64,000 bases of DNA from assembly GCA_963695825.1 (NCBI GenBank), contig CAVOHX010000009.1:133168-197167 (forward strand). Direction: 5' to 3'. Within the stretch, counting starts at the first letter, position 1, and each line of letters starts with the position of its first letter. The notes under the pieces were generated by a model. That model searched no databases. It was not told where the DNA came from and saw nothing but the letters and a program-made list of their open reading frames with translations. Positions 1,986 through 23,587 of this stretch are shown here, one piece after another. The stretch is from an uncultured Chloroflexia bacterium (GTDB lineage Bacteria > Chloroflexota > Anaerolineae > Promineifilales > UBA4811). The position numbers and the translations under genes were made by a program.

Positions 1986-4505
1986 ATGTCAGCCTATAAA
2001 AAGTTTAGCCTGTTGTTAAGCGTCCTGATCGTCTTGTCGATGATCCTGGCGGCTTGCGGCGGCGAGGACCCGACCGCCACGCCCAAGCCGCCCGAGCCGA
2101 CGGAGGAGACGCACGAAGAGACGGCCGAAGAGACGACCGAGGAAGCCGGAGACCTGCTCGACCAGGTGATGGCGGCCGGCAAGCTGGTCGTCTCTACCGA
2201 TCCCAACTATGCTCCGCAGAGCTTTCTGAACGATGCCGGCGAGCTGGATGGGTTTGATGTAGAAGTCGCCGAAGAAGTCGCCAAGCGCCTGGGCGTGGAT
2301 ATCGAGTTCACGACCCCGGACTGGGACCTGCTAACCGGCGGCAACTGGGGCGGCCGATGGGATCTCAGCATCGGTTCCATGACCCCGACCGAGCCACGCG
2401 TCGAGGTGCTCTGGTTCACCGACGCCTATTATTTCACGCCTGCGTCCTTTGCGGTGCACAAGGACAACACCTCCATCGGCTCGGTGGGCGATCTGGCGGG
2501 CACTACCCTGGGGTTGGGCACCGCCACCACCTATGAAGCCTACCTGGATGGTTCACTGGCCATCATTGGCGGCGAGGTCCTGTACGATCCGCCTTCGGGC
2601 ATTGAGGTCAAGCCCTACTCGACCGACGCCGAGGCGATTCAGGATCTGGCCCTGGGCGACGGCGTCCGACTGGACGCGGTGATGTCGGCACAGCCGACGA
2701 TTCAGAACGCCATTGACCAAGGTATCCCGCTCAAGTATGTGGGCACGCCAGCCTTTTACGAGCCGCTGGCCTTTGCGTTGGACAAGAGCCGCGGCCCGTC
2801 GGACCACATGGTGGCCAAACTGAACGAGATCATCGCGGCGATGCACGGTGACGGCACCTTGTCGGAACTCTCGATCAAGTGGTACGGCATCGACATCACC
2901 AAACTCGTCGCTCCGGGAGAAGAAGCAGCCGTGGAAGTCTGCACCATGGTCGATGGCCTGATGGTTTGCGAGGCGCCCAATTGCGACTATGGCGGCCAGA
3001 TGCTCAAGATGGAAGCGGTGGACGAGATGACTGTCCAGTTCACCCTGTGTGCACCGGATGTGGCTTTCCCGTCCAAGGTCGCCTTTTCGGCGTTTGCCAT
3101 CCACCCCTCGGAGTATCTCGAATTCACCGGCGGAGGGGGTCAACTGGTAGACAATCCTGTCGGGACTGGCCCCTACATGCTCCAGGAGTGGCGTCGCGGC
3201 GAGCAGATCATCATGGTCAGGAACCCTGACTACTGGGGCACGCCGGCTATCGCCGATACGCTGGTCTTCCGCTGGAGCACCGAGGGCGCGCAGCGACTGG
3301 TCGAGCTCCAGTCGGGCAGCGTTGACGGCATCGACAACCCGAGCCCTGATGATTTCCCCACCATCGAGGCGGATTCGAACCTGACGCTCTACCGACGTGA
3401 GGCGCTCAACATCTTTTACCTGGGGATGAACAACTTTTTCCCGCCGTTTGACAATGAAGTGGTGCGCCAGGCCGTTGCCATGGGCATCGATCGCCAGCGT
3501 ATCGTGGATAACTTTTATCCCGAGGGCTCGGAGGTTGCGTCCCACTTTGTGCCCTGCACAATCCCCGGCGGCTGCGAGGGTGAGGAGTGGTACGAGTTTG
3601 ACGTGGACGCTGCCAAGGCGCTGCTGGCTGAAGCGGGTTTCCCCGACGGCTTTGAGACCAAGATCAGCTATCGCGACGTTTTTCGCAGTTACCTGCCGGA
3701 GCCTGGCCTGGTGGCTCAGGATCTTCAGGCGCAGTTAAAGGCCAATCTCAACATCGATGCCGAGATCGTCGTCATGGAGTCGGGCGAGTTCATCGACGCC
3801 GCCGACGCGGGCGAGTTGGAGGGCTTTCACCTGCTGGGCTGGGGCGCCGACTATCCTGACTGCACCAACTTTCTCGACTATCACTTTGGCGCGGGTGCGT
3901 CGGACCAGTTTGGTGACGGCTTTGAGGACATCTGGGATGCGTTGCGACGCGCTGGTTCGCTGTCCATCCAGGCGGAGCGTAACCCGATCTACGGCGAGGC
4001 CAACGACCTGATCCGGCAACACGTGCCCATGATCCCGGTGGCACACGGAGGCTCGGCGACGGCTTTCCGCGCCGACGTTGCTGGCGCGCATTCCAGCCCG
4101 CTGGGCAACGAGAGCTTCAAGGTGACAGACCCCGGTGGGCGTGACACCATGATCTGGATGCAGAACGCCGAGCCGATCGGCCTCTACTGCGCCGACGAGT
4201 CCGATGGCGAATCGCTGCGGGCTTGCGAGCAGATCAACGAATCGCTGCTGGCCTACATGGTGGCAGGCACCGCCGTCGAGCCATCGCTGGCCGAACGCTA
4301 CGAGGCAAATGAAGAGTTGACAGTGTGGACGTTCTACCTGCGGCCGGGCGTCAAGTTCCACGACGGCACCGATCTGGACGCGAACGACGTGATCCTGTCG
4401 TTGGTGCTTCAGTGGGATGCCGAGCACCCGCTGCATGTGGGTCGTGATGGTTCGTTCACCTACTGGCCAGGTCTCTTTGGCCCGTTCCTGAACGCGCCCG
4501 AGTAG
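1986..4505 (+). CDS. Lipoprotein with an SBP family 3 (polar amino acid-binding) domain fused to a circularly permuted SBP family 5 (Dpp/Opp-type) domain.
   Basis: Lipobox LAAC follows a hydrophobic signal peptide. The SBP3-like block runs from LVVSTDPNYAPQSF to DGFDVEVAEEVAKRLG. The SBP5 core starts at MEAVDEMTVQFTL and includes PVGTGPYMLQEWRRGEQIIMVRNPDYWG. The canonical SBP5 N-terminal block (TVWTFYLRPGVKFHDGTDLDANDV...SFTYWPGLFG) sits at the extreme C-terminus. Confidence 0.85.
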   Translation: MSAYKKFSLLLSVLIVLSMILAACGGEDPTATPKPPEPTEETHEETAEETTEEAGDLLDQVMAAGKLVVSTDPNYAPQSFLNDAGELDGFDVEVAEEVAKRLGVDIEFTTPDWDLLTGGNWGGRWDLSIGSMTPTEPRVEVLWFTDAYYFTPASFAVHKDNTSIGSVGDLAGTTLGLGTATTYEAYLDGSLAIIGGEVLYDPPSGIEVKPYSTDAEAIQDLALGDGVRLDAVMSAQPTIQNAIDQGIPLKYVGTPAFYEPLAFALDKSRGPSDHMVAKLNEIIAAMHGDGTLSELSIKWYGIDITKLVAPGEEAAVEVCTMVDGLMVCEAPNCDYGGQMLKMEAVDEMTVQFTLCAPDVAFPSKVAFSAFAIHPSEYLEFTGGGGQLVDNPVGTGPYMLQEWRRGEQIIMVRNPDYWGTPAIADTLVFRWSTEGAQRLVELQSGSVDGIDNPSPDDFPTIEADSNLTLYRREALNIFYLGMNNFFPPFDNEVVRQAVAMGIDRQRIVDNFYPEGSEVASHFVPCTIPGGCEGEEWYEFDVDAAKALLAEAGFPDGFETKISYRDVFRSYLPEPGLVAQDLQAQLKANLNIDAEIVVMESGEFIDAADAGELEGFHLLGWGADYPDCTNFLDYHFGAGASDQFGDGFEDIWDALRRAGSLSIQAERNPIYGEANDLIRQHVPMIPVAHGGSATAFRADVAGAHSSPLGNESFKVTDPGGRDTMIWMQNAEPIGLYCADESDGESLRACEQINESLLAYMVAGTAVEPSLAERYEANEELTVWTFYLRPGVKFHDGTDLDANDVILSLVLQWDAEHPLHVGRDGSFTYWPGLFGPFLNAPE

Positions 4506-5802: not shown

Positions 5803-6801
5803 ATGCCGACTCCCGAGAACCAAGATACCCGATCTGGCGATCGACCAGTGGACCTTTTGGACCATGACCTGGCGACCATGGACGAGGTGCTGCGACATGC
5901 GCCCAGCAGCCTCTGGCGGGATGCGCTGCGGCACGTTTTTCGCAAGCGATCCGCCATTGTGGGGATGACTATCCTGGGTGTGCTGGTATTGATCGCCATC
6001 TTTCATCCGCTGCTGGCTACCCACGATCCCAGCATCCCCATGTTGGATATCCCGGAGGAGGTGGCGGCCGGGGTTCGCAAACGAACTCCGCCGTGTATCC
6101 ATCTGCTGGGCTGCCCCGAAGAGCAGCCGCAGCACATCCTGGGCCTGGATGGGAATGTGCGGGACTTTTTCAGTCGCATGATGTACGGCTCCAAGTGGTC
6201 GCTGATCATTGGCTTTACCACGGTTACCTTTGCCATCATCGTGGGTACCATCCTGGGTGCGGTGGCGGGCTATGCCGGCGGATGGGTGGACAATGTCATC
6301 ATGCGGCTGATGGATGTCCTGCTTGCGTTTCCGTCGTTGATTCTCGCCATCGCCATTGTGACTGTGCTGGGGCCCGGCCTGGTTAACGCTCTGCTGGCGA
6401 TCGGCATTGTGTCGATACCGGTCTACGCCCGGATCATGCGGGCCAGCGTGCTGTCGGTCAAGGAGACGGATTACGTCGAGGCGGACCGCGCCCTTGGGGT
6501 TGGCTCGACGCGTTTGCTGTTTCATCGAATCCTGCCCAATGCTCTGACGCCGCTGATTGTCCAGGGGACCCTGGGGATCGCAACCGCTATCCTGGACGCG
6601 GCCGCCCTATCGTTTCTGGGTCTGGGAGCGCAACCGCCGATGCCCGAGTGGGGGTCCATGCTAGGCGCTGAACGCAACCAGGTTTTCAGCGCCCCACACC
6701 TGGTTTTCTTTCCCGGCATCGCCATCATGCTGACGGTCTTGAGCTTTAACCTGCTGGGCGACGGGTTGCGCGATGCGCTGGACCCGCGTCTGAATCGGTG
6801 A
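5803..6801 (+). CDS. Peptide/nickel-type ABC transporter permease (DppC/OppC family).
   Basis: ATG at 5803 lies downstream of the dppB-like stop. Motifs DYVEADRALGVGSTRLLFHRILPN and LGDGLRDALDPR are present. Confidence 0.9.
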   Translation: MPTPENQDTRSGDRPVDLLDHDLATMDEVLRHAPSSLWRDALRHVFRKRSAIVGMTILGVLVLIAIFHPLLATHDPSIPMLDIPEEVAAGVRKRTPPCIHLLGCPEEQPQHILGLDGNVRDFFSRMMYGSKWSLIIGFTTVTFAIIVGTILGAVAGYAGGWVDNVIMRLMDVLLAFPSLILAIAIVTVLGPGLVNALLAIGIVSIPVYARIMRASVLSVKETDYVEADRALGVGSTRLLFHRILPNALTPLIVQGTLGIATAILDAAALSFLGLGAQPPMPEWGSMLGAERNQVFSAPHLVFFPGIAIMLTVLSFNLLGDGLRDALDPRLNR

Positions 6802-6812
6802 AAGGACCAGCG

Positions 6813-7846
6813 ATGGCGATGGCAGATGGCGTCCAGAACCAGGCTGCAGTAGCCGATCAGCGGCCGGCGGCCGACGACATCCTGCTCGATGTGCGTGATT
6901 TGAGGACTCACTTTCACACGCTGGATGGTGTGGTCAAGGCAGTGGATGGGGTGGATTTGGCCGTGCGACGGGGGGAGGTTGTTGGGCTGGTCGGTGAATC
7001 GGGCTGCGGCAAAAGCGTGACGTCGTTCTCAGTGCTACGCCTGATCGCTCATCCCGGCCGGATTGAATCGGGTGAGGTCTGGTTTGATGGGACTAACCTG
7101 CTTGAACTTCCCATCAAAGAGATGACCCGCATCCGCGGCCGCCGTATCTCGATGATCTTTCAGCAGCCGACCGCCTGTTTGAACCCGGTCTACAACACGG
7201 AGTACCAACTGGCTGAGGTCTATCGCATTCACCAGAACCTGAGCCGCAAAGTCGGCCGCCAGCGTGCGCTGGAACTACTGCAAAAGGTCGGCATTCCAGA
7301 TCCCAAGCGTCGCTTGAAGGCGTTTCCGCACGAGCTCTCGGGCGGAATGGCGCAGCGGGTGATGATTGCCATGGCGCTCGCCTGCAACCCGACTTGCTCA
7401 TCGCCGATGAGCCGACCACGGCTCTGGATGTGACGATTCAGGCCCAGATTCTGGACCTGATGCGTGAACTTCAGGCCGAGCTGGGCGCGGCGATTGTCCT
7501 GATCACCCACGACCTGGGTGTTGTGGCCGAGATGGCTTCGCGCATTGCCGTCATGTACGCTGGCCAGATCGTAGAAGAGACCGACATCCGCAGCCTTTAT
7601 CGGTCACCCCAGCACCCATATACGATCGGTCTCATCGGATCGATCCCGGTGCTGGGCCAGATCAAGACCGAGCTTGACGTGATCCCGGGGACGGTGCCGA
7701 ACCTGATCGAGCTGCCCCCGGGCTGTCGGTTTGCCCCTCGATGCCGGGCGCGGGTAGAGAGGCAACTCGATATCTGCCTGCACGAGATCCCGCCATTGGA
7801 TCAGACTGCACCCGGTCACCTGGTCCGTTGCTGGCTTTATTCTTAA
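6813..7846 (+). CDS. Peptide ABC transporter ATP-binding protein (DppD/OppD family), with one frame break near 7390.
   Basis: ORFs 6798-7433 and 7394-7846 join as ...[10 protein letters not shown]|[21 protein letters not shown]. Motifs: [17 protein letters not shown], and the oligopeptide C-terminal motif GCRFAPRC. Confidence 0.85.
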
Positions 7847-7851
7847 CCGCC

Positions 7852-8875
7852 ATGTCCGTCGAACTCGATTGGTTGGTCCAAGAGTCGGAAAGTACTGTGG
7901 AGAACCTGATAGAAGTCCAGGATCTGGTAAAGCATTTCCCGGTCAAGGGAGGCTTGCTTCAACGTGTTCAGGGGTGGGTCAAGGCGGTCGATGGGGTCAG
8001 CTTTGCCATCCGCAGAGGTGAGACGCTGGGCTTGGTGGGCGAGTCGGGCTGTGGCAAGACAACGGTCGGGCGTACCTTGTTGAGACTGATCGAGCCCACC
8101 GCCGGAAAGGTCTTTTTCGAAGGGCGGAATCTCACCCAGTTGACCGCAGAGGAGATCAAACCGCTGCGGCGTGAGATGCAGTTGATCTTTCAGGATCCCT
8201 TTTCGTCGCTGGACCCTCGCTCACAGATTGCCGACGTCATCGGCGAGGGGCTCTATGTCCACGGTCGAGAAGGACGGCAATGAGCGGCGAAGGCAGGTAC
8301 TGGAGATTATGCGCCGGGTGGGGCTGGCAGAGGATCATTTGCGCCGCTATCCGCACGAGTTCTCGGGCGGACAGCGACAGCGCATTGGCATCGCGCGGGC
8401 ATTGATCCTGCGCCCCAAGTTCATCGTGTGTGACGAGCCGGTCTCGGCACTGGATGTGTCAATACAGGCTCAGGTCCTCAACCTATTGCGGAAGCTCCAG
8501 CGCGATTTTGACCTGACCTACCTGTTTATCGCCCACAACATGAGCGTGGTCGAGCACATCAGCGACCGGGTTGCTGTTATGTACCTGGGCAAAATCGTCG
8601 AGATTGCCGGGCAACGCAGTCTCTACAGCAACCCACTTCACCCCTACACCCAGGCCCTGCTGTCAGCGATTCCGGTGGCTGACCCCGACCGCAAGCGACA
8701 GCGGGAAATACTCACCGGCGATGTTCCCAGCCCGCTGAACCCGCCCTCTGGCTGCCGCTTCCACCCTCGCTGTCCCATCGCCAGCACGGATTGCTCGTCG
8801 ATTCAGCCGGAGCTGCGCTCACTGGCGCCTGATCATCAGGTGGCATGTCACTATGCGGAGCAGTTCCTGGTGTAG
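7852..8875 (+). CDS. Peptide ABC transporter ATP-binding protein (DppF/OppF family), with one frame break near 8265.
   Basis: ATG at 7852 lies 6 nt after the dppD-like stop. ORFs 7741-8283 and 8228-8875 join. Motifs: [33 protein letters not shown]. Confidence 0.85.
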
Positions 8876-9041
8876 GTCGGGACACGGCCGGTTGTAGCTG
8901 TTGTCTCTGGTCGGAGGATTGCAGACAGGAGGAGGTGGCCTTGGCTGAGGCGAGCGATGTACTCGACAGCCAGCCAACCCCCAAGCTGCCGGCCGACTGA
9001 TGGCACGCGCGCGTTCAGGCGCTCATGAGGAGGAAACCAAT

Positions 9042-11186
9042 ATGGAGATGCCTGCCGCTTCACAGGAGAAATCGGACCACAAGCTGGTCAGATGGTTGTT
9101 GAATCTGGTCGCCATCACGGTGGCCCTGAGCCTGCTGTATGCTGTACTGTTTTACCTCGGCGGGCCGGTCCGCTTGGCAGTGGTCACCGAGGTGTTGGAC
9201 CTGGCGTTTAAGACTGACGGCGAGCAGCTAGCGGTTGCAGCGCAGGACGGCACGGTCTGGCTCTACGATGTGAGCCGAGACTGGGCGGCAACCGCGCTCT
9301 CTGATCACGAGGCGCCGGTCATCGACGTAGCGATATCCCCTGATGGCTCTTCCCTGGTGTCCGTCGATCAAGAGGGTGAGGTCCGAATCTGGCAGGTTCC
9401 CGGGGGCCGGGTTGAGAAAGCGTTCAGCACCGGGGGCCCAGTGAGTCAGGCAGCCGTTGCGGCCGACGGATCGGTGTTGGCGACCTTGGGCGGCGATGAT
9501 ATCATCCGCACCTGGGAATTGCCCTCCGGTGATCAGCTTCAGTCCATTGGTCCCGAGGAGGGGGTTGGCCTATCGGTCGCGGTGAGTGCAGACGGCTCGC
9601 TGGTGGCGGCCGGCGTGGACGACAAGATCGGCCTCTGGGACTCGCACACCGGGGCGTTGGTGCGCACCCTGGAGGGCTATTGGGAGGATGAAACCCAAGA
9701 GGATTGGCTCGGGCACGACGAGGAAGTCACGGCGCTCGCCTTTAGTCCGGACGGGGAGATGCTCGCCTCGGGCAGCGCGGACACGACGATCAACTTTTGG
9801 GGAGTGGACACGGGCGAGGTGATTTGGCCGTCCGAGGGACACTGGGGGACAGTGACCAAGCTGGTGTTCAACGCCGAAGGCGATCTACTTCTTTCGGGCG
9901 GCAAGGACAACAAGGTCCGGAGTTTCCGGGTAGCCGGCGGTAGAAGCACCGCGCTGTACGAGGGGCACGTGGGTACCATCAATGGCGTCGCCTTTGGACC
10001 TACGCCCGATACCATTCTCACGGCCGCCAACGATGGCTCGGTGCGTCTCTGGGAGACAGCCAACCAGAAGGTCCAACACATCGAGTGGCCTCGGTATGGC
10101 CTGCAATCGGTGTGGGGCGACCTCTTTGGCATCTGGACACTCGTCAGCGGCGTTCTCGGCGCGATATGCCTGGTTGGCCTGCGCCGACGCAAGACATGGA
10201 GCCATCTGGTAACACTGGCGCTGTTCCTGGTGGGACCCATCGTGGTGCTTGGTCTTCCTCTGCTCGAGGCGCTATCGTATCCGATATCGACTGGTATCAA
10301 ACTGCAAATTGGTTGGCCCTTGGTGTTGCTCGCTGCCTGGTATTCGGCGTTGGTGGTGTTGCTAATGCGGGACAGCGTCGTGGCCGTGTATGAGGCTCCG
10401 CGTGATGTGCCGTTGGCCGACCGCTTGGTGATCAGCCAACGCACCGCCAAATCCCGTTTTGGGATCTTTGGTTTGGGGACGTGGATGCTGGTGTTGGTGC
10501 TGCTCTATTCCGTGCTGCGACGCTTTAACCTCGACATCGCGTTCATGGGCCACTTTTTCTCCTTTATCATGCAGGGGAGCTGGATCACGCTGCGCATCTC
10601 GGCCATCTCTATCCTGCTGGCGGTGGTCCTGGCCCTGGTGGGCGCCTTGGGGCGTCTGTCCAAGAACCCGGCTGCGAACGGCTTGGCCAGCTTTTATGTG
10701 TCGCTCATTCGTGGCACACCGCTCCTGGTGCAGGTGTACATTTGGTACCTGGGTTTGCCGCGGTTGGACATTGTGCTTCCCGGAGAGCTAGCCGGCATAT
10801 TGGCGCTCGGGGTGAACTATGGCGCCTATATGTCAGAAACCTTTCGCGCGGGGATTCAGGCGATTGGCAAGGGGCAGTACGAAGCGGCGCAGGCGTTGGG
10901 GATGACGCGAGGGCAGACGTTTCGCAGGATCGTTCTACCACAGGCCTTCCGTATTGTGATTCCACCGATTGGCAACGATTTCATCGCCATGATGAAGGAC
11001 TCGTCGCTGGTGTCGGTGATGGCCATCTGGGAGCTGACGTATCGGGCGCAAAAGATCGGCCGGCAGAACTTTCGCAACATGGAGACCTTTATCATCGCCG
11101 CCGCGTTCTACTGGCTGCTGACGGTGGTATTCCAATTCCTTCAGGGCAAGCTGGAGGATTACATGGCTCGCGGCGAAAGGAGGTAA
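9042..11186 (+). CDS. Seven-bladed WD40 beta-propeller fused, through extra TM helices, to a HisM/GlnP-type polar amino acid ABC permease.
   Basis: AGGAGG lies 8 nt before the ATG at 9042. One N-terminal TM helix precedes seven WD-like repeats ending WLYDV, RIWQV, RTWEL, GLWDS, NFWGV, RSFRV and RLWE. About four TM helices follow. A complete permease domain ends the protein (GTPLLVQVYIWYLGLP, AAQALGMTRGQTFRRIVLPQA). Confidence 0.85.
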   Translation: MEMPAASQEKSDHKLVRWLLNLVAITVALSLLYAVLFYLGGPVRLAVVTEVLDLAFKTDGEQLAVAAQDGTVWLYDVSRDWAATALSDHEAPVIDVAISPDGSSLVSVDQEGEVRIWQVPGGRVEKAFSTGGPVSQAAVAADGSVLATLGGDDIIRTWELPSGDQLQSIGPEEGVGLSVAVSADGSLVAAGVDDKIGLWDSHTGALVRTLEGYWEDETQEDWLGHDEEVTALAFSPDGEMLASGSADTTINFWGVDTGEVIWPSEGHWGTVTKLVFNAEGDLLLSGGKDNKVRSFRVAGGRSTALYEGHVGTINGVAFGPTPDTILTAANDGSVRLWETANQKVQHIEWPRYGLQSVWGDLFGIWTLVSGVLGAICLVGLRRRKTWSHLVTLALFLVGPIVVLGLPLLEALSYPISTGIKLQIGWPLVLLAAWYSALVVLLMRDSVVAVYEAPRDVPLADRLVISQRTAKSRFGIFGLGTWMLVLVLLYSVLRRFNLDIAFMGHFFSFIMQGSWITLRISAISILLAVVLALVGALGRLSKNPAANGLASFYVSLIRGTPLLVQVYIWYLGLPRLDIVLPGELAGILALGVNYGAYMSETFRAGIQAIGKGQYEAAQALGMTRGQTFRRIVLPQAFRIVIPPIGNDFIAMMKDSSLVSVMAIWELTYRAQKIGRQNFRNMETFIIAAAFYWLLTVVFQFLQGKLEDYMARGERR

Positions 11187-11190
11187 TCCG

Positions 11191-11967
11191 ATGACTGAAG
11201 AGCGACAGACTCGAGAGTCCAAGACGATGATCAAGGTACGCGACCTGCACAAGTTCTTTGGACCTCTGCACGTCATCAGAGGGGTGGACCTGGAGGTGGC
11301 GCAGCGCGAGGTCGTGGTAATCATTGGGCCATCAGGCGGCGGCAAGAGCACGTTTTTGCGCTGCTTGAACTTTCTTGAAGAGCCGTCGGCCGGCACGATC
11401 GAGGTAGATGGGGTGGAGATCAGGGCGCGCGAGCCGGCCCGCGAGCAGCGCAAGCACATACGGGAGATCCGGCAAAAAGCGGGCATGGTGTTTCAGCAAT
11501 TCAACCTGTTTCCACACATGACGGCGATTGGCAACATTATCGAAGCGCCGCTCACGGTAAAGAAAATGTCCCGGCCGGAGGCCGTGGCCAAGGGTGAGGA
11601 GCTGTTGAGGTGGGTTGGCCTATCGGAGAAACGGGACGAGTTCCCCTCCCGGCTCTCGGGCGGCCAGCAGCAGCGCGTCGCGATCGCTCGGGCGTTGGCG
11701 ATGGAGCCCAAGATTATGCTATTCGACGAACCTACCTCGGCGCTCGATCCGGAGCTGATCGGCGAGGTGGTAGAGGTGATGGAGCGCATGGCGGACGAGG
11801 GCATGACCATGGTGGTGGTGACCCATGAGCTGCATTTCGCCCGTGACGTGGCTGATCGCGTGATTCTGATGGCCGACGGCGTGTGGGGAGAAATGGCTCC
11901 CCCCGACGTGTTTTTTACGAACCCCAAGGAGGAGCGTACGCGCCAGTTTCTGGCTCACATCTTGTGA
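11191..11967 (+). CDS. Polar amino acid ABC transporter ATP-binding protein (GlnQ/HisP family).
   Basis: AAGGAGG RBS. Motifs: GPSGGGKST, LSGGQQQRVAIARALAMEP, IMLFDEPTSALDPE, VVTHELHFARDVADRV. Confidence 0.9.
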   Translation: MTEERQTRESKTMIKVRDLHKFFGPLHVIRGVDLEVAQREVVVIIGPSGGGKSTFLRCLNFLEEPSAGTIEVDGVEIRAREPAREQRKHIREIRQKAGMVFQQFNLFPHMTAIGNIIEAPLTVKKMSRPEAVAKGEELLRWVGLSEKRDEFPSRLSGGQQQRVAIARALAMEPKIMLFDEPTSALDPELIGEVVEVMERMADEGMTMVVVTHELHFARDVADRVILMADGVWGEMAPPDVFFTNPKEERTRQFLAHIL

Positions 11968-12250
11968 GTTCAGGCGCCGTCGTGTAACGCGGGTATTGAG
12001 GAGAGGAACGATGTTCACTGGTATGGGGTGGCCAAATCTCGCCAGTGGCCTCTAATCCATAGCCCCAGGTGGGCAGATGCGACTGGCTCAAGCGGGCGGC
12101 AAGGGGCCGCTTTGTCTTGTGCCGGCGGCCGTGGGCGGCGTTCAACGCGGCTATCCTCCGCTCTGCCCGTTCCCCATGTGAAAACTAAAGGCAGGTTGCC
12201 GTCTCGCCTGCCGAGATGAACAGACCGTGAATATCAAGGAGAAAAGCGTC

Positions 12251-13716
12251 ATGAGACCGAAACTGAACATACTCGGCGACGAACTGGTTGAGCAGATCAT
12301 CGCTGAAGGATTCGAGTTGCTGATGGACCCGGGCGTCCGGGTCCACAATGCCGAAGCGCTCCGGTTGCTAGCAGAGGCCGGTGCCGCAAGTGCACATGGA
12401 CACGATGATCGCTCACATACCGCAGGCGTTGGTACGAAAGGCGCTAGAGACGCGCCCATCCGAGTTTTATCTCTACGATCTGGACGGCGAGCGGTGGTGC
12501 ATTACGGGGGCGACAGCGTGCAGTTTGACCCCGGCTCGGCCGCCATCACCATCCTGGACAGCGAAACCCAGGAGCAGCGCGTCCCGGTGACGGCCGACTT
12601 TGTCAAGTTTGTCAAGCTGGTGGAGATGATCCCCCAGTTGGACGCCCAGAGCACGGCGATGATCTGCGTCGACGTCCCGGAAGAGGTCGGCGACCTGTAC
12701 CGCCTCTACCTGGCGCTCAACTATATGCGCAAGCCCATCATCACCGGCGCGTTCCGCAAGGACACCTGGTGGACCATGAAGGACATGCTGGTGGCGATGG
12801 TGGGCAGCGAAGAGGCGCTGGCGGCCAAGCCAATCGCCGTGTTCGATGTCTGCCCGTCGCCGCCTTTGCTGTGGAGCGATCTGACCTGCCAGAACATGAT
12901 CGACTGCGGCGCGCTATGGCATCCCGTCGGAGCTGGTCTCGATGCCGCTCGCGGGCGCCACGGCGCCGGTCACCCTGGCGGCCGCGGTTGTCCAGCACAC
13001 GGCCGAGTGCATGAGCGGCGTGACCATCTGCCAATTGGCGCAGGAGGGTGCGCCCATCGTGTGGGGCGGCTCGCCGGCTGCCTTTGACATGCGCGAAGGC
13101 ACCACCCCGATGGGAGCGGTTGGCACCTGGATGATTGACTGCGCCTACACTCAGGTCGGCAAGGCGCTGAACATGCCGACCCACGCCTACCTGGGCATGT
13201 CGCGATGCCAAAGTCGTTGACGCCCAGTGTGGACTCGAGTCGGCCGGCGGCACGATCATGGCGGCGCTGGCGGGCGTCAACATGGTGTCCGGCGCCGGCA
13301 TGATGGACTTTGAGAGCTGCCAGAGTTTCGAAAAGCTGGTGATCGACGCCGAGATCATCGGCATGGCCAAGCGGCTCATCGCCGGTGTCGAGGCGCGCGA
13401 ACAGCCGATTGCGCTGGGTCTGATGCGCAAGCTCCAGCACCGGGCAGACTACCTGGCCCAACCGCATACCCTCAAGTGGTTCAACAAAGAGCTGTACATC
13501 CCGTCGTCGGTGATCGACCGCGCCTCCCTGGATGGCTGGAAGAAAAAGGGCGCCAAAACGACGTGGGAGCGCGCCCAAGACCGCGTGAAGCAGTTGCTGG
13601 CAGCCTATACGCCGCCCGCGGTGTCGGCCGACTTGCGCGCCGAACTGCGGAATATTGCGACCAGTGCGGCGAGCAAATTCGGCATGGACGAATTGCCGCC
13701 GCTCGCTTTTGACTAA
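12251..13716 (+). pseudogene. MttB-superfamily (trimethylamine methyltransferase-like, non-Pyl) methyltransferase, broken by at least 4 frame shifts near 12388, 12491, 12910 and 13202.
   Basis: AAGGAG precedes the ATG at 12251. Fragments in three frames join collinearly: ...AEAGA|VHMDTMIAHIPQALVRKALETRPSEFYLYDLDGER|VVHYGGDSVQFDP...NMIDC|ARYGIPSELVSMPLAGATAPVTLAAAVVQHTAE...AYLGMS|DAKVVDAQCGLESAGG...GAGMMDFES. No in-frame TAG is needed. The breaks may be sequencing indels rather than true decay. Confidence 0.75.
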
Positions 13717-13747
13717 CACCCACCAATCAAGCCTAAGGAGCGCAGAG

Positions 13748-14392
13748 ATGTCAGATGATCTGTATAAACAAATGGTCGCCAGCATTATTGAGGGCGATCC
13801 GGATGTCACGGTAGAGCTGACCAAACAGGGGATTCAAGCCGGTCTTGAGCCGCTTGATATCGTTAACCGGGGCCTGGTGCCGGGGATGGATGTCGTTGGG
13901 GAAAAGTTCCAGACCGGAGAGTACTTTTTGCCCCATCTGATCATCGCTGCTTCGGCCATGCAGCAGGCGATGGCGTTGCTGGAGCCCGAGTTGCAGGCAC
14001 GGCAGCAGGTGGTGGAGGTGGTGGGTACGGTGGTAATCGGCACCGTCGAGGGCGACATCCACGAGATTGGCAAGTCGCTGGTGGCGACCATGTTGTCCGC
14101 GCACGGCTTTCAGGTGTACGATCTGGGAATCGACGTGGCGACCGAGACCTTTGTGGCTGCGGTAAGGGAAAAAGGCGCCAATCTACTGGGGTTGTCAGCG
14201 CTTCTGACCACTACCATGACGGCCCAGCGCAAGGTGATCGAGGCGCTGGACGAGGCGGGCATTCGCGACCAGGTCAAGGTCCTCGTCGGCGGCGCGCCGG
14301 TCAGCCAGGAGTGGGCCAACACAATCGGCGCTGATGGGTATGCGGAGGATGCGATTGGCGCGGTGGAGGTGGCCCGCCAACTGGCAGCCTAG
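13748..14392 (+). CDS. Corrinoid (cobalamin-binding) protein of the methyltransferase system (MtbC/MttC/MtgC-like).
   Basis: An N-terminal B12-binding_2-like helical cap is followed by the DxHxxG motif in GTVEGDIHEIGKSLV. The Rossmann-like segment LLGLSALLTTTM...VLVGGAP is also present. Confidence 0.9.
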   Translation: MSDDLYKQMVASIIEGDPDVTVELTKQGIQAGLEPLDIVNRGLVPGMDVVGEKFQTGEYFLPHLIIAASAMQQAMALLEPELQARQQVVEVVGTVVIGTVEGDIHEIGKSLVATMLSAHGFQVYDLGIDVATETFVAAVREKGANLLGLSALLTTTMTAQRKVIEALDEAGIRDQVKVLVGGAPVSQEWANTIGADGYAEDAIGAVEVARQLAA

Positions 14393-14591
14393 TTAACGGC
14401 GAGAGACTGGACCCGCGACGCGGCGAGCTACGCCGTTCTCCAGCCGCGGTCCAGCCTCGTGATGGAATCGAGTGGCAGGCCCTGCGCTGTTAGGCAGGGC
14501 CTGCTGCAGATTAGGCAGCAGCGAACGAAATCGATGTGCTGAAGGCATGCTGCGCCGTGGATCAACGGACAAACAGAGAAAGGAGTACGTC

Positions 14592-16055
14592 ATGGCAGGC
14601 TCGATCAAAGCCATCACCGACCCCCGATTCAAGCTGGCGGTGCTCAGCGCCGAGGATGTTGAGACGCTCCACACTGCCACGCTGGATGTAATCGAGAATG
14701 TCGGAGTGCGGTTTCCCAGCACGCGTGCCCTCGATATCTGGGAGTCCCACGGCGCGCTGGTTGACCGGGACAGTATGATTGTCCGCGCCCGTGGGGAGCT
14801 GATCCAAGACGCCCTTAAACAAGCGCCACCCCTCTACACGCTGGCGGCGCGCGATTCTGCGTTGGACCTGGCTCTGGATGGGAATCACGCCTACGTGGGC
14901 ACCGACGGTTGTGGGGTGCAGGTGGTCGATATCGAAACTGGAGAGCGCAGGCAGTCCCGTCTGCAGGACGTGGTCGAGATCGCGCGGGTTGCAGATGCGT
15001 TAGAGCAGGTGGCTTTTCATTGGGTAGCGGTCTCGGCTCAAGACTGTCCCCCAGAGACACGCGGCCTGTACGAGATCAAGGCAATCTGGGAAAACTCGAC
15101 CAAGCACGTGCAGACCGAGAGTATCTACTCGGAGCACGAAGCACGGGCAGCAATCGAGATGGCAGCGGCGATCGCCGGCGGCCGTGATGTGCTGCGCCAG
15201 CGGCCGGTCCTGTCCATCATGCAGTGCACGCTGTCCCCGCTGGGCCAGGACGGCGGCAGTCTGGACGCGGCCTTGATCGGCGCCGAGGCCGGCCTACCGG
15301 TGGGCTTTATGACGATGGCTTCCTGCGTGACCACCGGCCCCGCCACACCGGCAGGGAATCTGGTGGTGGGCAACGCAGAGGTGGTAAGCGCCACAGCCTT
15401 GATCCAGCTTGCGCATCCCGGCGCGCCGGTTTTCTACGCGGCGGCTCAGACGGCGGCCGATCTGCGGACCGGGGCCTACACCGGGGGCGGCCCCGAGGAT
15501 TTCCTGTTTGGCGCGGCGACCAACCAGTTGGCCGATTATTATGACATTCCGCTTTCAATGGGCGCGTTTGCCACCGGGGCCAAAGAGCCCGATTGGCAAG
15601 CAGGTGTCGAGAACAGCCTCTCCTGCCTGATGGCGTCGGCCGTGATGTCCGATATGATGTTGGGGATAGGTTTGCTGCACGGCAGCCGTATCTGGTCATA
15701 CGAGCAGATGCTCATGGATTGTGAGGTGTTTGACATCGTTCACGGCATGATGCAGGGGATCGTCGTGAACGATGACACACTGGCACTGGACGTGATCCGG
15801 CAGGTGGGGCCAGGCGGCAACTTTCTCGCCCAAAAGCACACCCTGCAGAACATGGGCGGACTCTGGGTACCCAAATACATGGATCGGCGGCCGTACCAGG
15901 TGTGGGAAACCAAGCGGGACGGCGCCCGGGATTGGGCCAGGAGCGAGGCGCAACGAATCCTGCGCAATCATCAGCCCGAGCCTCTGGAGACGGGCCTGGC
16001 GGCCGAGCTTGCCAGCATCATCGCCTCGACCGAGCGCAGGATCAAGCGCCAGTAG
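14592..16055 (+). CDS. MttB-superfamily methyltransferase, intact, with no amber codon (non-pyrrolysine type, substrate unknown).
   Basis: GAAAGGAG RBS precedes the ATG at 14592. The 487-codon ORF is uninterrupted. Family-typical blocks are present: LSAEDVETLHTATLDVIENVGVRF, GPATPAGNLVVGNAEV, GGNFLAQKHT. Confidence 0.88.
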   Translation: MAGSIKAITDPRFKLAVLSAEDVETLHTATLDVIENVGVRFPSTRALDIWESHGALVDRDSMIVRARGELIQDALKQAPPLYTLAARDSALDLALDGNHAYVGTDGCGVQVVDIETGERRQSRLQDVVEIARVADALEQVAFHWVAVSAQDCPPETRGLYEIKAIWENSTKHVQTESIYSEHEARAAIEMAAAIAGGRDVLRQRPVLSIMQCTLSPLGQDGGSLDAALIGAEAGLPVGFMTMASCVTTGPATPAGNLVVGNAEVVSATALIQLAHPGAPVFYAAAQTAADLRTGAYTGGGPEDFLFGAATNQLADYYDIPLSMGAFATGAKEPDWQAGVENSLSCLMASAVMSDMMLGIGLLHGSRIWSYEQMLMDCEVFDIVHGMMQGIVVNDDTLALDVIRQVGPGGNFLAQKHTLQNMGGLWVPKYMDRRPYQVWETKRDGARDWARSEAQRILRNHQPEPLETGLAAELASIIASTERRIKRQ

Positions 16056-16153: not shown

Positions 16154-18631
16154 ATGCTGACAAGGCGACCATTGCTGTGGCTTGCGCCGGTGGTGCTGAT
16201 ACTGCTGATCTCTGGCTGTTCCCGCGCCGACGAACCGGCCGGAACACTGGTCCCGGCCGAGGCTACACCGGAGCAAGCGAGCGAGCCTGAACCGACCCCG
16301 CTGCCCGAGATAACGATCGTCGAGCGCGAGCAGTTGGTGGTGGGCGTCGATGCGGCGTTCCCACCCTTTGTGGATCTCAATCGGGATGGCGAGTATATCG
16401 GCATCGAGGTTGATCTATTTGCCGCCATCGCTGATCTCGCCGGCCTGGACTATCAGCTTCAGAGCGCCGACTGGGACGCAGTTTTCGACGACCTGATTAG
16501 TGGGCGGTTCAACATGGTGTTTGGAGGGCTGGTGCAAGACAATGCGCCAGCCGCCCTGGTCGAGCTCACAGAGCCCTACTTTGAGTTGGGCCAGGTGGCG
16601 GTCACGCGGGGGAATAGAGAAGACATCACGGCTCTGGAAGACCTGGCGGGCGCCACCGTTGGCGTCGTTCCTCTCTCCTGGGGAGAATATGCCGTCACGG
16701 GCCAGTCGTCCTCCTTGCCAGGAGGCTACCAGGTGCCGCCAGGCAACATCCGGCATTATGACACCGCCGAGAAGCTGGTGGAAGCGCTCTTTGCTGACTA
16801 TGTGGATGTCATTGTCACCGATCACACGGTGATCGAGAGCTTTCTCGCCGTCAACCCAGACGATATGCGCGTTCTGCGGCCGCGGGGCCAGGAGGGAGAA
16901 GGGGCGGGCTCCGACGCATGGCTGGCGGCTCATCGTTTTCACATCGCGGTCCCCAAGGGGGCCGACGAGTTGCTCGCCTCACTGAACGCAGCCATTGAGC
17001 AGGCCCGGTCCGAGGGCCAGATTGCGGCGGTAATGGAGGGGTGGGGCTTTGTACCCGAGTTTGTCGAACGCCCCCGATTCGTCCAGGACGCCGGGGCATC
17101 CTCGCTGATTGCGGGCGTCGAAAAGGTGGACGATATGACGGTTCGATTCGTCCTCAACCGACCGGACCCCAACTTTGATTACAAAATGGCGGTCCCGGCG
17201 ATGGCCATCCATAGCCCGGCGAACCTAGAGCTGTACGCCGGCGGGGACCTCGGTCTGAACCCGGTTGGCACCGGTCCATATGGTCTGGCTGGATGGGAGC
17301 CAGGCCAGGCGCTCACGCTGACCGCCAGTCCCAGCTATTGGGGAGTGGCGCCGCTGATTGACACGATTCTGGTGCGGACGGTCCCGGACGCGGCCGAACG
17401 ATTTCGATTGTTAAAGGCCGGCGAGGTTCAGTTGGTGGACAGCCTGGGGCCAGAGGACTTGGCGGCGCTCGAAGAAGAGGAAGATGAAAAGATCGTCGTC
17501 TATCCCCGGGCGCCGGTCAACATCGCTTACCTGGGTATGAATCGTGATACGGCGCCGTTTGACGAGCGCCTGGTTCGGTTGGCGGTAGCCACGTGTATCG
17601 ATCAACCGGCGCTGGTAGAGACGGTGTATCCGACGGGCACGCTGGTGGCGCACCAGTTCGTGCCGCCTAACACTTTTGGCTTTTCCCCAGGATTGCTGTG
17701 GTACGATCAGGACAGTGAAGGCGCCGCGGCATTGCTCGCGGATGCCGGGTATTCTGCGGAGCTTGCACTGACCTTGAGCTTTGCCAATGTGCCCAGCGAC
17801 TACCTGCCTGAACCGAGGTTGATCGCCGAGGCGATCCGGGGCCAGCTTGGCGCCTGTGGGATCACGACCACATTGGAGAGCCTCGACGCCGACACGTATG
17901 TTGAACGCCTGGAGGCAGGCGAGCTGCCGTTGCATCTGGGTGGCTGGTCGGCCGATTATCCCGGCCCGATCAGTTTTTTGAACACCCATTTCACCGGCGT
18001 GGGGACCGGTCTGCAATTCGGCGCCCCTTTTCCGGAGGTAGTTGAGCGGCTCGAGCAGGCGGCCGAGAGTTCAGATCGTACGCTTCGCCAGGAGCTATAC
18101 AATCAGGTGAATCAGTTGCTTAAGGAAAAGGTCGTTTTCGTGCCCTTGGCGCATGGTAGCTCGGCGCTGGCTGCCCGATCCACGCTGAACGGTGTCGTCA
18201 CCAACCCTGTGCGGCGGGAATCACTGACCCGGGTGGGACCCTTTACGGACACAGCGACGATCACCACTTTTGTCTATGCCGTGCGCAGCGATCCGCTCTC
18301 CTTGGATCCGACCGACGAATGGGATGATGCAACATTCGAGATAACCAGCCAGGTTTATGACACGTTGGTCGATTTCGAGCCGGCGACGACAGTGCTCACG
18401 CAGGGGCTGGCGATCGAGTGGTCCTCCAACGAGAGCTATGATGTCTGGGAATTCACCCTGCGGCCGGGGGTGCGTTTCCAGGACGGAACGCCGCTAACTG
18501 CCGACGCCGTTATCGTGAACTTTGAACGGCTGTGGGATCCAGAACACCCGTGGCGCAACGGTCGCACAGGGGCATTTCGGTATTTTCGGGCGCTTTTTGG
18601 GGGCTTTAAGGAACCTCAAGGGCGACAGTAG
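16154..18631 (+). CDS. Second lipoprotein with an SBP family 3 domain fused to a circularly permuted SBP family 5 domain (paralog of 1986-4505).
   Basis: Lipobox ISGC. SBP3 block LVVGVDAAFPPFVDLN...GIEVDLFAAIADLAG. The SBP5 core starts at VEKVDDMTVRFVL and includes PVGTGPYGLAGWEPGQALTLTASPSYWG. The canonical SBP5 N-terminal block (FVYAVRSDPLSLDP...WEFTLRPGVRFQDGTPLTADAV...AFRYFRALFGG) sits at the C-terminus. Confidence 0.85.
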   Translation: MLTRRPLLWLAPVVLILLISGCSRADEPAGTLVPAEATPEQASEPEPTPLPEITIVEREQLVVGVDAAFPPFVDLNRDGEYIGIEVDLFAAIADLAGLDYQLQSADWDAVFDDLISGRFNMVFGGLVQDNAPAALVELTEPYFELGQVAVTRGNREDITALEDLAGATVGVVPLSWGEYAVTGQSSSLPGGYQVPPGNIRHYDTAEKLVEALFADYVDVIVTDHTVIESFLAVNPDDMRVLRPRGQEGEGAGSDAWLAAHRFHIAVPKGADELLASLNAAIEQARSEGQIAAVMEGWGFVPEFVERPRFVQDAGASSLIAGVEKVDDMTVRFVLNRPDPNFDYKMAVPAMAIHSPANLELYAGGDLGLNPVGTGPYGLAGWEPGQALTLTASPSYWGVAPLIDTILVRTVPDAAERFRLLKAGEVQLVDSLGPEDLAALEEEEDEKIVVYPRAPVNIAYLGMNRDTAPFDERLVRLAVATCIDQPALVETVYPTGTLVAHQFVPPNTFGFSPGLLWYDQDSEGAAALLADAGYSAELALTLSFANVPSDYLPEPRLIAEAIRGQLGACGITTTLESLDADTYVERLEAGELPLHLGGWSADYPGPISFLNTHFTGVGTGLQFGAPFPEVVERLEQAAESSDRTLRQELYNQVNQLLKEKVVFVPLAHGSSALAARSTLNGVVTNPVRRESLTRVGPFTDTATITTFVYAVRSDPLSLDPTDEWDDATFEITSQVYDTLVDFEPATTVLTQGLAIEWSSNESYDVWEFTLRPGVRFQDGTPLTADAVIVNFERLWDPEHPWRNGRTGAFRYFRALFGGFKEPQGRQ

Positions 18632-23555: not shown

Positions 23556-23587
23556 GATGGATCGCAATGCGCGAACGGGAAGCAGCG

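What the first reader, a model, noticed from the sequence alone, without database searches (positions are those of the whole stretch)
9042..11186. WD40 beta-propeller fused to the membrane domain of a polar amino acid ABC importer
One uninterrupted ORF encodes, in order:
- a basic N-terminus and one TM helix;
- seven recognisable WD-type blades;
- about four additional TM helices;
- a complete HisM/GlnP-type permease domain.

Its GlnQ-type ATPase starts 4 nt downstream. Positive-inside reasoning places the propeller outside the membrane. That is the position where the fused importers I know of (GlnPQ-type) carry their substrate-binding domains. I do not know of a characterised ABC importer with an extracytoplasmic propeller fused to the TMD.

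No stand-alone SBP3 gene accompanies this permease. The only SBP3 modules nearby are in the two fusion lipoproteins. The propeller could therefore be a docking platform, a receptor surrogate or a regulatory module.

There is no SD motif before the internal Met at the permease boundary (…NLDIAFMGHFF…). This argues against two separate genes.
Basis: partly seen in the sequence, partly recalled or inferred. Interest (0 to 1): 0.8.

Follow-up and report, generated by a model that had tools for sequence, protein, structure and literature searches.

The report
Propeller-bearing amino-acid ABC importer permease
This is a real gene, conserved in uncultured Chloroflexota, in which the membrane subunit of an amino-acid-type ABC importer carries a seven-bladed WD40 propeller on the outside of the cell; no transporter of this design appears to have been studied, and what the propeller does is unknown.

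Summary
ORF 9042-11186 (714 aa) encodes one anchor helix, a seven-bladed WD40 propeller, four extra membrane helices and a complete polar-amino-acid-type (PAAT) ABC permease core. A GlnQ-type ATPase starts 4 nt downstream.

It is not an assembly artefact. At least 120 protein clusters (58-67% identical, full length) and 30 species-level genomes carry the same fusion. All named sources are uncultured Chloroflexota, mostly Anaerolineae.

Helix parity places the propeller outside the membrane. So does a sister lineage (P0124), which has a signal peptide and an SBP3 receptor domain in exactly the propeller's position.

The "receptor surrogate" idea is not supported. An SBP3 module 72-84% identical to the one in the window's lipoprotein 1986-4505 lies upstream of the permease in all 23 related loci with enough upstream DNA. 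This transporter therefore has a normal cognate receptor, supplied as a lipoprotein that is often fused to other binding-protein domains.

My best guess, which is inference only, is that the propeller is a protein-docking platform holding the lipid-anchored receptor or another envelope partner next to the translocator. I found no literature on this architecture. I rate it a new variant of a known kind, with moderately high interest.

The parts
9027..9033 (+). Shine-Dalgarno GAGGAGG, 8 nt before the ATG at 9042
   Evidence: Read directly from the sequence.
9042..11186 (+). WD40-propeller / PAAT permease fusion gene (714 aa plus stop)
   Evidence: ORF list. Identical database protein P0001 and at least 120 full-length homologue clusters.
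9090..9155 (+). TM0: N-terminal signal-anchor helix, aa 17-38, with conserved polar positions (T26, S30, Y33, Q36)
   Evidence: Family hydropathy, AF2 helix 6-38, conserved columns.
9174..10091 (+). Seven-bladed WD40 beta-propeller, aa 45-350. Blades 5-7 (aa 225-348) are the most conserved.
   Evidence: Pfam, AF2 28 strands, Foldseek TM-score 0.89 to 7-bladed propellers, conservation by loop.
10107..10526 (+). Four-helix membrane scaffold (TMa-TMd), aa 356-495. It includes the cytoplasmic 30-aa c-d loop and the invariant RRFNLD junction.
   Evidence: The profile of this region finds only 6 clusters among 1.84 billion representatives.
10533..11174 (+). PAAT-type permease core, aa 498-711; it aligns with the whole of ArtQ (five helices, own knowledge)
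   Evidence: phmmer against ArtQ 4YMS_D residues 4-217, E 2e-42. PF00528 and TIGR01726.
10881..10940 (+). EAA coupling motif, EAAQALGMTRGQTFRRIVLP (EAA-x3-G-x9-I-x-LP), aa 614-633
   Evidence: Translation; invariant columns E614 A615 A616 G620 P633.
11191..11967 (+). GlnQ/TcyN-type ABC ATPase, translationally coupled (4-nt gap; AGGAGG inside the end of the permease ORF)
   Evidence: Found directly downstream in every related locus with enough downstream DNA.
1986..4505 (+). Lipoprotein f1 (lipobox LAAC). Its SBP3 module (nt 2139-2933) is the inferred cognate receptor; the C-terminal part is SBP5-like.
   Evidence: Pfam, N-terminus, synteny at 72-84% identity in 23/23 loci, 56% identity to the SBP3 fused in P0124.
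16154..18631 (+). Lipoprotein f2 (lipobox ISGC), a second and more divergent SBP3+SBP5 fusion. It may be a second receptor.
   Evidence: Pfam, N-terminus. Orthologues lie downstream of the ATPase in L002 and L027.

Best explanation
Shown:
- The ORF is the membrane subunit of a PAAT-family type I ABC importer.
- Its ATPase is the translationally coupled gene at 11191-11967.
- Its architecture is signal-anchor helix TM0, seven-bladed WD40 propeller, four-helix membrane scaffold, then the PAAT permease core.

Inferred from single-gene synteny: the membrane subunit acts as a homodimer.

Strongly inferred from synteny: the substrate receptor is the SBP3 module of lipoprotein f1 (1986-4505).

Strongly inferred from helix parity and from a sister protein that carries a secreted SBP3 in the same slot: the propeller lies outside the cytoplasmic membrane, next to where the receptor docks.

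Proposed function (inference only): the propeller does not bind the transported substrate. It is a protein-interaction platform that keeps the lipid-anchored, often multi-domain receptor at the translocator. In this view it does non-covalently what covalent fusion of the binding domain does in GlnPQ and in P0124. Transport itself would follow the ordinary type I cycle: the loaded SBP3 docks on the permease dimer, ATP binding closes the ATPase dimer through the EAA coupling helices, and the substrate passes.
For: Architecture.

Real and conserved gene:
- At least 120 clusters at 58-67% identity and 96-100% coverage (5 of the 120 rows fall outside this range) carry the same architecture; both PF00400 and PF00528 are visible in nearly every row, the few exceptions being truncated Pfam lists.
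- 30 GTDB species loci, every record titled as a Chloroflexota-group MAG.

Outside location:
- Three core helices separate D498 from the cytoplasmic EAA loop, and four helices separate D498 from the propeller.
- K/R enrichment is in the a-b, c-d and core 1-2 loops, while the b-c loop is net acidic.
- P0124 has a signal peptide, SBP_bac_3, and then the same four helices and permease. It is 50% identical over aa 356-714 (E 6e-98) and was seen on 3 contigs.
- P0122 has a PBP_like_2 binding-protein fold inserted in the propeller's blade 4-5 loop.

Cognate receptor:
- The SBP3 module lies upstream in 23/23 loci with enough upstream DNA, at 72-84% identity. That is far above the propeller's 39-57%.
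- It is 56% identical to the fused SBP3 of P0124.
- f1 and f2 have lipoboxes.

Pattern behind the docking idea:
- Where SBP3 is fused to the permease (P0124, L035-37), there is no propeller and no separate SBP3 among the few genes visible on these short contigs.
- Where SBP3 is a separate lipoprotein, the propeller is always present.
- A second importer permease in the same lineage (the OppB type in L038) also carries a propeller-like insert, next to a triple-SBP lipoprotein.
Against: - No direct evidence links the propeller to the receptor.
- The propeller does not co-vary with the receptor's architecture. Identity is 0.48 within receptor types and 0.45 between them, and the types are interleaved in the clustering.
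- The mutually exclusive pattern rests on a single fused-SBP3 lineage.
- I had no model coordinates, no PAE and no multimer prediction, so the position of the propeller relative to the docking face is unknown.
- The propeller's conserved positions (GH, D, T, W in blades 5-7) are largely the structural WD40 signature and do not identify a binding surface.
- The topology is predicted, not measured.
- Variant P0270 has a cytoplasmic-type PLP enzyme joined within TMb. It fits the parity argument only if a 14-residue remnant spans the membrane.
Confidence: 0.4

Rival explanations
1. The propeller recruits a different extracytoplasmic partner, not the receptor. Candidates are a peptidase or hydrolase that releases the substrate next to the importer, or a cell-wall or S-layer component that positions the transporter.
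For: WD40 propellers are generic protein-binding scaffolds (established knowledge). The propeller does not co-vary with receptor architecture. Variant P0121 adds a second repeat domain of unrelated type N-terminal to the WD40, which suggests an extendable outward-facing scaffold.
Against: No conserved candidate partner gene lies in the loci. Apart from SBP3, the permease and the ATPase, the neighbours differ from locus to locus. This idea also does not explain why the fused-SBP3 lineage lacks the propeller.
Confidence: 0.2
2. The propeller is an extracytoplasmic regulatory or sensor module. It would gate the importer in response to an external ligand or envelope state and pass the signal through the four-helix scaffold and its conserved cytoplasmic c-d loop to the ATPase.
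For: TM0, the four scaffold helices and the 30-aa cytoplasmic c-d loop are conserved (YEAP, QRT.K.R; invariant R472, W481, RRFNLD). AF2 models the scaffold helices with the propeller at pLDDT above 90 up to about aa 450, falling to 82-89 for aa 451-490. Regulatory domains on ABC importers are known, for example in MetN, ModC and OpuA (own knowledge; OpuA).
Against: Known regulatory domains of ABC importers are cytoplasmic and sit on the ATPase. No ligand-binding signature was found in the propeller. Sister protein P0124 keeps the scaffold but swaps the propeller for the receptor, so the scaffold does not need a propeller.
Confidence: 0.15
3. Receptor surrogate: the propeller itself captures the substrate and delivers it to the permease, replacing a binding protein.
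For: It occupies the slot used by fused binding domains. The window has no stand-alone SBP3 gene.
Against: A highly conserved SBP3 module accompanies the permease in 23/23 informative loci. The SBP3, permease and ATPase are each 72-90% conserved, while the propeller is 39-57%. No type I importer is known to accept a non-SBP receptor (own knowledge).
Confidence: 0.06
4. Artefact: two genes joined by an assembly indel. This assembly does have frameshifts in neighbouring genes. A related alternative is that the propeller is really cytoplasmic.
For: OppD, OppF and one MttB gene in the window are each split by a frameshift relative to intact orthologues. Related long-read MAG loci show similar splits.
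Against: At least 120 independent clusters from many assemblies and sequencing projects have the same uninterrupted architecture with 96-100% coverage (5 of the 120 listed rows have lower coverage). The junction RRFNLD-AFMGHFF is invariant. There is no Shine-Dalgarno motif at the internal Met. A cytoplasmic location is contradicted by helix parity and by P0124.
Confidence: 0.03

Closest known systems
Art(QN)2 amino-acid ABC importer of Thermoanaerobacter tengcongensis (PDB 4YMS-4YMW), permease ArtQ
   Same: The permease core aa 498-711 aligns with ArtQ residues 4-217 of 220 at E 2e-42. It has the EAA motif and a single permease gene with one ATPase gene, which implies a homodimeric type I importer served by an SBP3-type receptor.
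   Different: ArtQ is only the permease core (five helices, own knowledge). It has no N-terminal anchor helix, no propeller and no four-helix scaffold.
GlnPQ of Lactococcus lactis (substrate-binding domains fused in tandem to the N-terminus of the PAAT permease)
   Same: An extracytoplasmic domain is fused N-terminally to a PAAT permease and paired with a GlnQ ATPase (abstract of the GlnPQ paper). The window's SBP3 module has GlnPQ's SBDs as its best PDB match (6h30, 1e-26).
   Different: The fused domain here is a WD40 propeller, not a binding domain. The receptor is a separate lipoprotein. Four extra membrane helices lie between the external domain and the permease core, and the N-terminus is an uncleaved anchor rather than a signal peptide.
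P0124 (MBM4035514.1, 'ABC transporter substrate-binding protein/permease', uncharacterised MAG protein)
   Same: It has the same four-helix scaffold and permease (50% identity, E 6e-98). Its SBP3 type matches the window's f1 (56% identity). An ATPase lies directly downstream.
   Different: A signal peptide and SBP3 replace TM0 and the propeller. No separate SBP3 gene is called on these short contigs.
Prokaryotic WD40 propellers such as Thermomonospora curvata PkwA (PDB 5YZV)
   Same: Seven-bladed WD40 fold, TM-score 0.89 and 33% identity.
   Different: PkwA's propeller is attached to a Ser/Thr kinase (kinase partner and cytoplasmic location are own knowledge). The 2017 survey of prokaryotic WD40 proteins never uses the word 'transporter' in its main text.
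Extracytoplasmic bacterial beta-propellers (TolB, BamB) - own knowledge, not tested here
   Same: They show that propellers can be exported and can act as periplasmic protein-docking modules.
   Different: They are not WD40-signature repeats at this level of sequence match, are not fused to a transporter permease, and are not part of an ABC importer.

Membership tests
PAAT-family (polar amino acid) type I ABC importer permease | BPD_transp_1 permease domain above the Pfam gathering score | tested here: met
   PF00528 at 88.9 bits against a cutoff of 26.4, aa 529-705.
PAAT-family (polar amino acid) type I ABC importer permease | His/Glu/Gln/Arg/opine N-terminal permease signature (TIGR01726) and similarity to a solved PAAT permease | tested here: met
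   TIGR01726 at 93.1 bits against a cutoff of 42.2. ArtQ 4YMS_D at E 2e-42 over its whole length.
PAAT-family (polar amino acid) type I ABC importer permease | EAA-x3-G-x9-I-x-LP coupling motif | tested here: met
   EAAQALGMTRGQTFRRIVLP at aa 614-633, invariant in the family.
PAAT-family (polar amino acid) type I ABC importer permease | Adjacent HisP/GlnQ-type ATPase and an SBP_bac_3 receptor | tested here: met
   The ATPase matches TcyN at 1e-100 and GlnQ at 2e-92. The SBP3 module is conserved in synteny in 23/23 loci.
PAAT-family (polar amino acid) type I ABC importer permease | Equivalog-level assignment to a named substrate system (TcyL, EhuC/D, GlnP, HisQ/M, ArtQ/M) | tested here: not met
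   All equivalog models score below their cutoffs. The best is TcyL at 179.8 against 300, then EhuD at 175.9 against 205. The substrate is therefore unassigned.
GlnPQ-type importers with fused substrate-binding domains | SBP_bac_3 domain(s) covalently fused to the permease | tested here: not met
   The window protein has no SBP_bac_3 match, and WD40 occupies the slot. Sister protein P0124 does meet this feature.
GlnPQ-type importers with fused substrate-binding domains | Extracytoplasmic N-terminal domain followed by a permease core whose N-terminus faces outward | tested here: inconclusive
   Predicted from helix parity, K/R distribution and homology to P0124. There is no experimental topology and no dedicated topology predictor was available.
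WD40 repeat beta-propeller | Multiple WD40 repeats above threshold that fold as a closed seven-bladed propeller | tested here: met
   PF00400 at 137.7 bits against a cutoff of 27. AF2 gives 28 strands with block-mean pLDDT of about 80-96. Foldseek gives 7bie and 5yzv at TM-score 0.89.
WD40 repeat beta-propeller | Acts as a protein-protein interaction platform | not testable with these tools
   No multimer prediction, PAE or coordinates were available, and there are no experimental data.

The most novel reading that the evidence does not exclude
Uncultured Anaerolineae may build receptor-sharing importer assemblies. In this reading, giant lipoproteins that fuse binding proteins of different classes (SBP3+SBP5, SBP8+SBP3, SBP8+SBP3+SBP5) serve two different ABC translocators encoded side by side: an Opp- or sugar-type system and the PAAT-type system. 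Propellers grafted onto the permeases (WD40 on the PAAT permease, a Reg_prop-like insert on OppB in L038) would be the docking stations that organise this assembly. In several loci a single GlnQ-type ATPase gene is the only ATPase present.
Probability: 0.12. Interest if true: 0.85.

Novelty: new variant of a known kind. Interest (0 to 1): 0.6.

Why it matters
Type I ABC importers are thought to receive substrate only through a binding protein, which is either free, lipid-anchored or fused to the permease. A conserved extracytoplasmic WD40 propeller on the permease, mounted on its own five-helix membrane base, would be an accessory module of a kind not described for these transporters. A relative carries the receptor in exactly the same slot.

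If the propeller docks the receptor, it would be a third, non-covalent way to raise the local receptor concentration in cells without an outer membrane. It would also give a tractable system for asking how multi-domain receptors are presented to a translocator. If it binds something else or regulates transport, that would be new for ABC importers.

The finding also flags that current annotation ('ABC transporter permease subunit') hides this architecture.

Tried and rejected
- Looking up the window's own protein P0001 to identify its contig returned 'not on record', so the organism is inferred only from the names of homologues.
- Model coordinates are not exposed. I therefore could not measure on which side of the membrane plane the propeller lies relative to the EAA loop, or which face points to the permease. 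I deduced from strand order that both connections leave the d-a/b-c ('top') face. I hold this loosely, because P0122 has a 220-aa domain inserted in a top-face loop.
- A second AF2 run on aa 350-714 alone, meant for a fold search of the four-helix scaffold, gave pLDDT 49 and was not searched further.
- The Foldseek search with the full model was dominated by WD40 hits and said nothing about the scaffold.
- I tested whether the propeller co-varies with receptor architecture and found no signal (0.48 against 0.45).
- The top and bottom loop conservation comparison was not interpretable, because the conserved positions are the structural WD40 signature.
- Seven literature searches found no description of this fusion.
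- An Rfam scan of the window found nothing.
- The idea that the fusion is a frameshift artefact was considered because neighbouring genes are frameshifted. It was rejected on the homologue evidence.
Full report
**Observation**

The window has one uninterrupted ORF at 9000..11186. It is also the start of the identical database protein P0001.

Domain evidence:
- Pfam finds WD40 repeats (PF00400, 5.4e-41, about aa 45-346) and the ABC importer permease domain (PF00528, 4.5e-25, aa 529-705) in the same polypeptide.
- NCBIfam finds the His/Glu/Gln/Arg/opine permease signature TIGR01726 above its cutoff. The nearest equivalog models (TcyL, EhuD, EhuC, GlnP) all score below their cutoffs.
- The next ORF, 11191-11967, is a TcyN/GlnQ-like ATPase. 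It starts 4 nt after the stop codon, with AGGAGG inside the end of the permease ORF.
- There is no ribosome-binding motif before the internal Met502 at 10545.

Every factual element of the finding is therefore confirmed.

**Not an artefact**

This mattered because the same window has frameshifted neighbours. OppD (about 7388-7391), OppF (about 8270-8277) and one MttB gene are each split relative to intact orthologues. The fusion itself is nevertheless solid:
- The 120 best clusters returned by the 5.8-billion-protein search mostly span 96-100% of the query at 58-67% identity and are mostly about 680-760 aa long (range 620-856). Five rows fall outside the coverage and identity ranges. Both PF00400 and PF00528 are visible in nearly every row; the few exceptions have truncated Pfam lists. 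The clusters come from NCBI, ENA, JGI and Logan assemblies.
- The junction sequence LYSVLRRFNLD-AFMGHFF is invariant or nearly so.
- A scan of GTDB species representatives with a profile of the junction region found 30 loci. Every record is a metagenome-assembled genome titled Anaerolineae, Anaerolineales, Anaerolineaceae, Ardenticatenales, 'Chloroflexia' or Chloroflexota, and none is a cultured isolate.
- Sources name these proteins only 'ABC transporter permease subunit' or 'polar amino acid transport system permease protein'.

**Anatomy**

A 113-sequence family alignment and AlphaFold2 agree on the layout. AF2 gave mean pLDDT 81, above 90 for aa 11-480 and lower for the permease, as expected for a monomer taken out of its complex.
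- A long N-terminal helix (aa 17-38) has nearly invariant polar positions.
- Twenty-eight strands form seven four-stranded blades (aa 51-348).
- Four long helices follow: 356-381, 385-410, 417-441 and 458-494.
- The permease core comes last. It aligns with all of ArtQ, whose five-helix core I state from my own knowledge.

Foldseek matches the propeller to seven-bladed WD40 domains at TM-score 0.89 (7bie; 5yzv, T. curvata PkwA). The permease core aligns with essentially the whole of ArtQ from the solved Art(QN)2 importer (residues 4-217 of 220, E 2e-42), starting at D498 directly after the fourth extra helix. The EAA coupling motif is intact at aa 614-633. Conservation is uneven: the permease is most conserved (mean top-residue frequency 0.87), then TM0 (0.75) and the four-helix scaffold (0.70), and the propeller least (0.65). 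Blades 5-7 are clearly more conserved than blades 1-3.

**Topology**

Two independent arguments place the propeller outside.

1. Helix parity. The EAA loop must face the cytoplasmic ATPase. Three helices separate it from D498, so D498 is outside. Four more helices separate D498 from the end of the propeller, so that end is outside too. TM0 then runs from inside to outside. The charge distribution agrees: the a-b, c-d and core 1-2 loops are net positive, and the b-c loop is net acidic.

2. Comparison with relatives. A full HMMER scan of 1.84 billion representative proteins with a profile of the scaffold region found only six clusters that cover it.
   - P0124 has a cleavable-type signal peptide, an SBP_bac_3 domain, and then the same four helices and permease. 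It is 50% identical to the window protein from aa 356 to the end (E 6e-98). It was seen on three contigs from different samples, each with the ATPase directly downstream and no separate SBP3 gene called on these short contigs. A binding-protein domain behind a signal peptide is extracytoplasmic, so the slot is extracytoplasmic.
   - P0122 has a PBP_like_2 binding-protein fold inserted into the loop between blades 4 and 5 of the propeller.

   One variant is awkward. P0270 joins a cytoplasmic-type PLP-dependent decarboxylase-like domain to the middle of the second scaffold helix. It fits only if the short remnant spans the membrane, and I leave it unexplained.

**The receptor**

Comparative synteny argues against this. 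I mapped the window's proteins onto 34 related loci (31 unique).
- Every locus with enough upstream DNA (23 of 23) has an SBP3 module 72-84% identical to the SBP3 module of the window's lipoprotein f1 (1986-4505). The loci without it are cut by contig ends.
- Every locus with enough downstream DNA has the ATPase, at 73-90% identity.
- SBP3, permease core and ATPase are thus much more conserved than the propeller (39-57%).
- The f1 SBP3 module is also 56% identical to the SBP3 that is fused into P0124.

The form of the receptor varies:
- fused to an SBP5-like part, with OppB and OppC genes in between (the window and at least ten other loci);
- fused behind an SBP_bac_8 domain (L001, L008);
- tandem SBP3-SBP3 (L017, L024);
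- single (L030-32);
- part of a 1244-aa SBP8+SBP3+SBP5 protein (L038).

f1 and f2 have lipoboxes; f1 also has a Pro/Thr/Glu-rich linker and f2 a Pro/Glu/Ala-rich one. The transporter therefore has an ordinary cognate SBP3, delivered as a lipid-anchored and often multi-domain protein.

**Mechanism**

The transport cycle itself can be assumed to be the standard type I cycle, from the intact permease core, the EAA motif, the ATPase and the SBP3. What the propeller adds is not shown by anything I could compute.

My preferred reading is a docking or retention platform for the lipoprotein receptor. It rests on four points:
- The propeller sits in the slot where a relative carries the receptor.
- The pattern is complementary: fused SBP3 with no propeller, against separate SBP3 with a propeller always present.
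- WD40 domains generally act as protein-binding scaffolds.
- A second permease in the same lineage carries a propeller-type insert beside a triple-SBP lipoprotein. This is the 771-aa OppB-type protein in L038, with Reg_prop repeats above the Pfam cutoff.

Against this reading:
- The propeller does not co-vary with receptor architecture.
- The complementary pattern rests on one fused lineage.
- I have no interface prediction.

The rivals are recruitment of another envelope partner, an external regulatory sensor acting through the conserved scaffold and its cytoplasmic c-d loop, and direct substrate capture. I rank direct substrate capture lowest because of the conserved SBP3.

**Substrate**

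The substrate is unassigned. The SBP3 module is closest to the GlnPQ binding domains and to reconstructed Gln/Arg binders among solved structures, and to cystine and Lys/Arg/Orn binders among NCBIfam models, all below cutoff.

The window also has two MttB-family methyltransferase genes, a corrinoid protein and an SHMT-GcvT fusion nearby. MttB and corrinoid genes recur in L015 and L027. Other loci instead have amidohydrolase or arginase genes.

From memory, and not tested here: the SBP3 keeps the arginine of the 'SMTPTEPR' motif that binds the alpha-carboxylate in GlnBP and HisJ, but it has 'SA' where those proteins have the aspartate that binds the alpha-ammonium group. It also has an invariant Trp-rich segment. 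A betaine-like or N-substituted amino acid is a lead worth testing.

**Novelty and score**

I found no paper describing a WD40 or other propeller fused to an ABC importer permease. The systematic survey of prokaryotic WD40 proteins never uses the word 'transporter' in its main text. The kind of system, a PAAT type I importer, is well known. The accessory module and its membrane scaffold are not. I therefore rate it a new variant of a known kind. Interest is 0.6. The architecture is conserved, unannotated and sits at a mechanistically meaningful position. Its function is unknown, the organisms are uncultured, and the most striking reading (receptor surrogate) is not supported.

Noticed in passing
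window 1986-4505 and 16154-18631; L001 7137-9371; L017 573-2393; L024 6850-8748; L038 1-1742: These are lipoproteins that fuse binding-protein domains of different classes: SBP3+SBP5 (window, 839 and 825 aa), SBP8+SBP3, tandem SBP3x2, and a 1244-aa SBP8+SBP3+SBP5. In the window proteins the SBP5 part matches DppA-type profiles only from about position 150 onward and is followed by about 125 extra C-terminal residues. The SBP5 part may therefore be rearranged rather than simply appended.
   Followed up: partly
L038 1829-4144: This OppB-type permease is 771 aa long. It has an insert of about 450 aa carrying Reg_prop (two-component regulator propeller) repeats between its first helix region and the permease core. 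It is a second, different propeller-decorated importer permease in the same lineage.
   Followed up: partly
window 6798-8875; L002, L004, L006, L013, L021, L025, L027: In the window, OppD and OppF each carry one frameshift (about 7388-7391 and about 8270-8277) relative to intact orthologues in L023 and L033. In about nine related loci there are no OppD/F genes at all, and OppB-OppC are followed directly by the WD40-permease and a single GlnQ-type ATPase. I could not determine whether the Opp-type permeases use ATPases encoded elsewhere.
   Followed up: partly
window 12227-13716, 13655-14392, 14472-16055: These are two MttB-family methyltransferase genes (the first split by a frameshift) flanking a corrinoid B12-binding protein, directly downstream of the transporter. 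MttB and corrinoid genes recur near the transporter in L015 and L027. This hints at a methylated-amine substrate in some members.
   Followed up: partly
window 43581-46739 (-): A 1051-aa ORF fuses serine hydroxymethyltransferase (SHMT) with an aminomethyltransferase folate-binding domain (GCV_T).
   Followed up: no
window 22350-24506 (-): A 717-aa ORF has two HtrA-like units (Trypsin_2 + PDZ, twice). In L002 the corresponding region has two separate HtrA genes, so this may be a real fusion or another assembly indel.
   Followed up: no
P0270 / P0125 (JGI and NCBI 'Planctomycetota' MAG contigs): A complete PLP-dependent decarboxylase-like domain without a signal peptide is fused to half of scaffold helix b, then helices c and d and the PAAT permease. 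It was seen on several contigs. It may be an enzyme-importer fusion, but its topology is unclear.
   Followed up: partly
P0121 / L030-L032 (about 8100-9100 in L030): One clade of the family has about 330 extra residues between TM0 and the WD40 propeller. They consist of repeats of about 45 aa (…YASLALD..GRPHIAYYD…) with a weak BNR_4 match, probably a second propeller-like domain.
   Followed up: no
window 2139-2933 (SBP3 module of f1): The module keeps the Arg of the SMTPTEPR motif but has 'DAVMSAQP' where GlnBP and HisJ, as I recall, have the Asp that binds the alpha-ammonium group. It also has an invariant Trp-rich segment, TPDWD..GGNWGGRWD. The comparison is from memory and was not tested here.
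   Followed up: no
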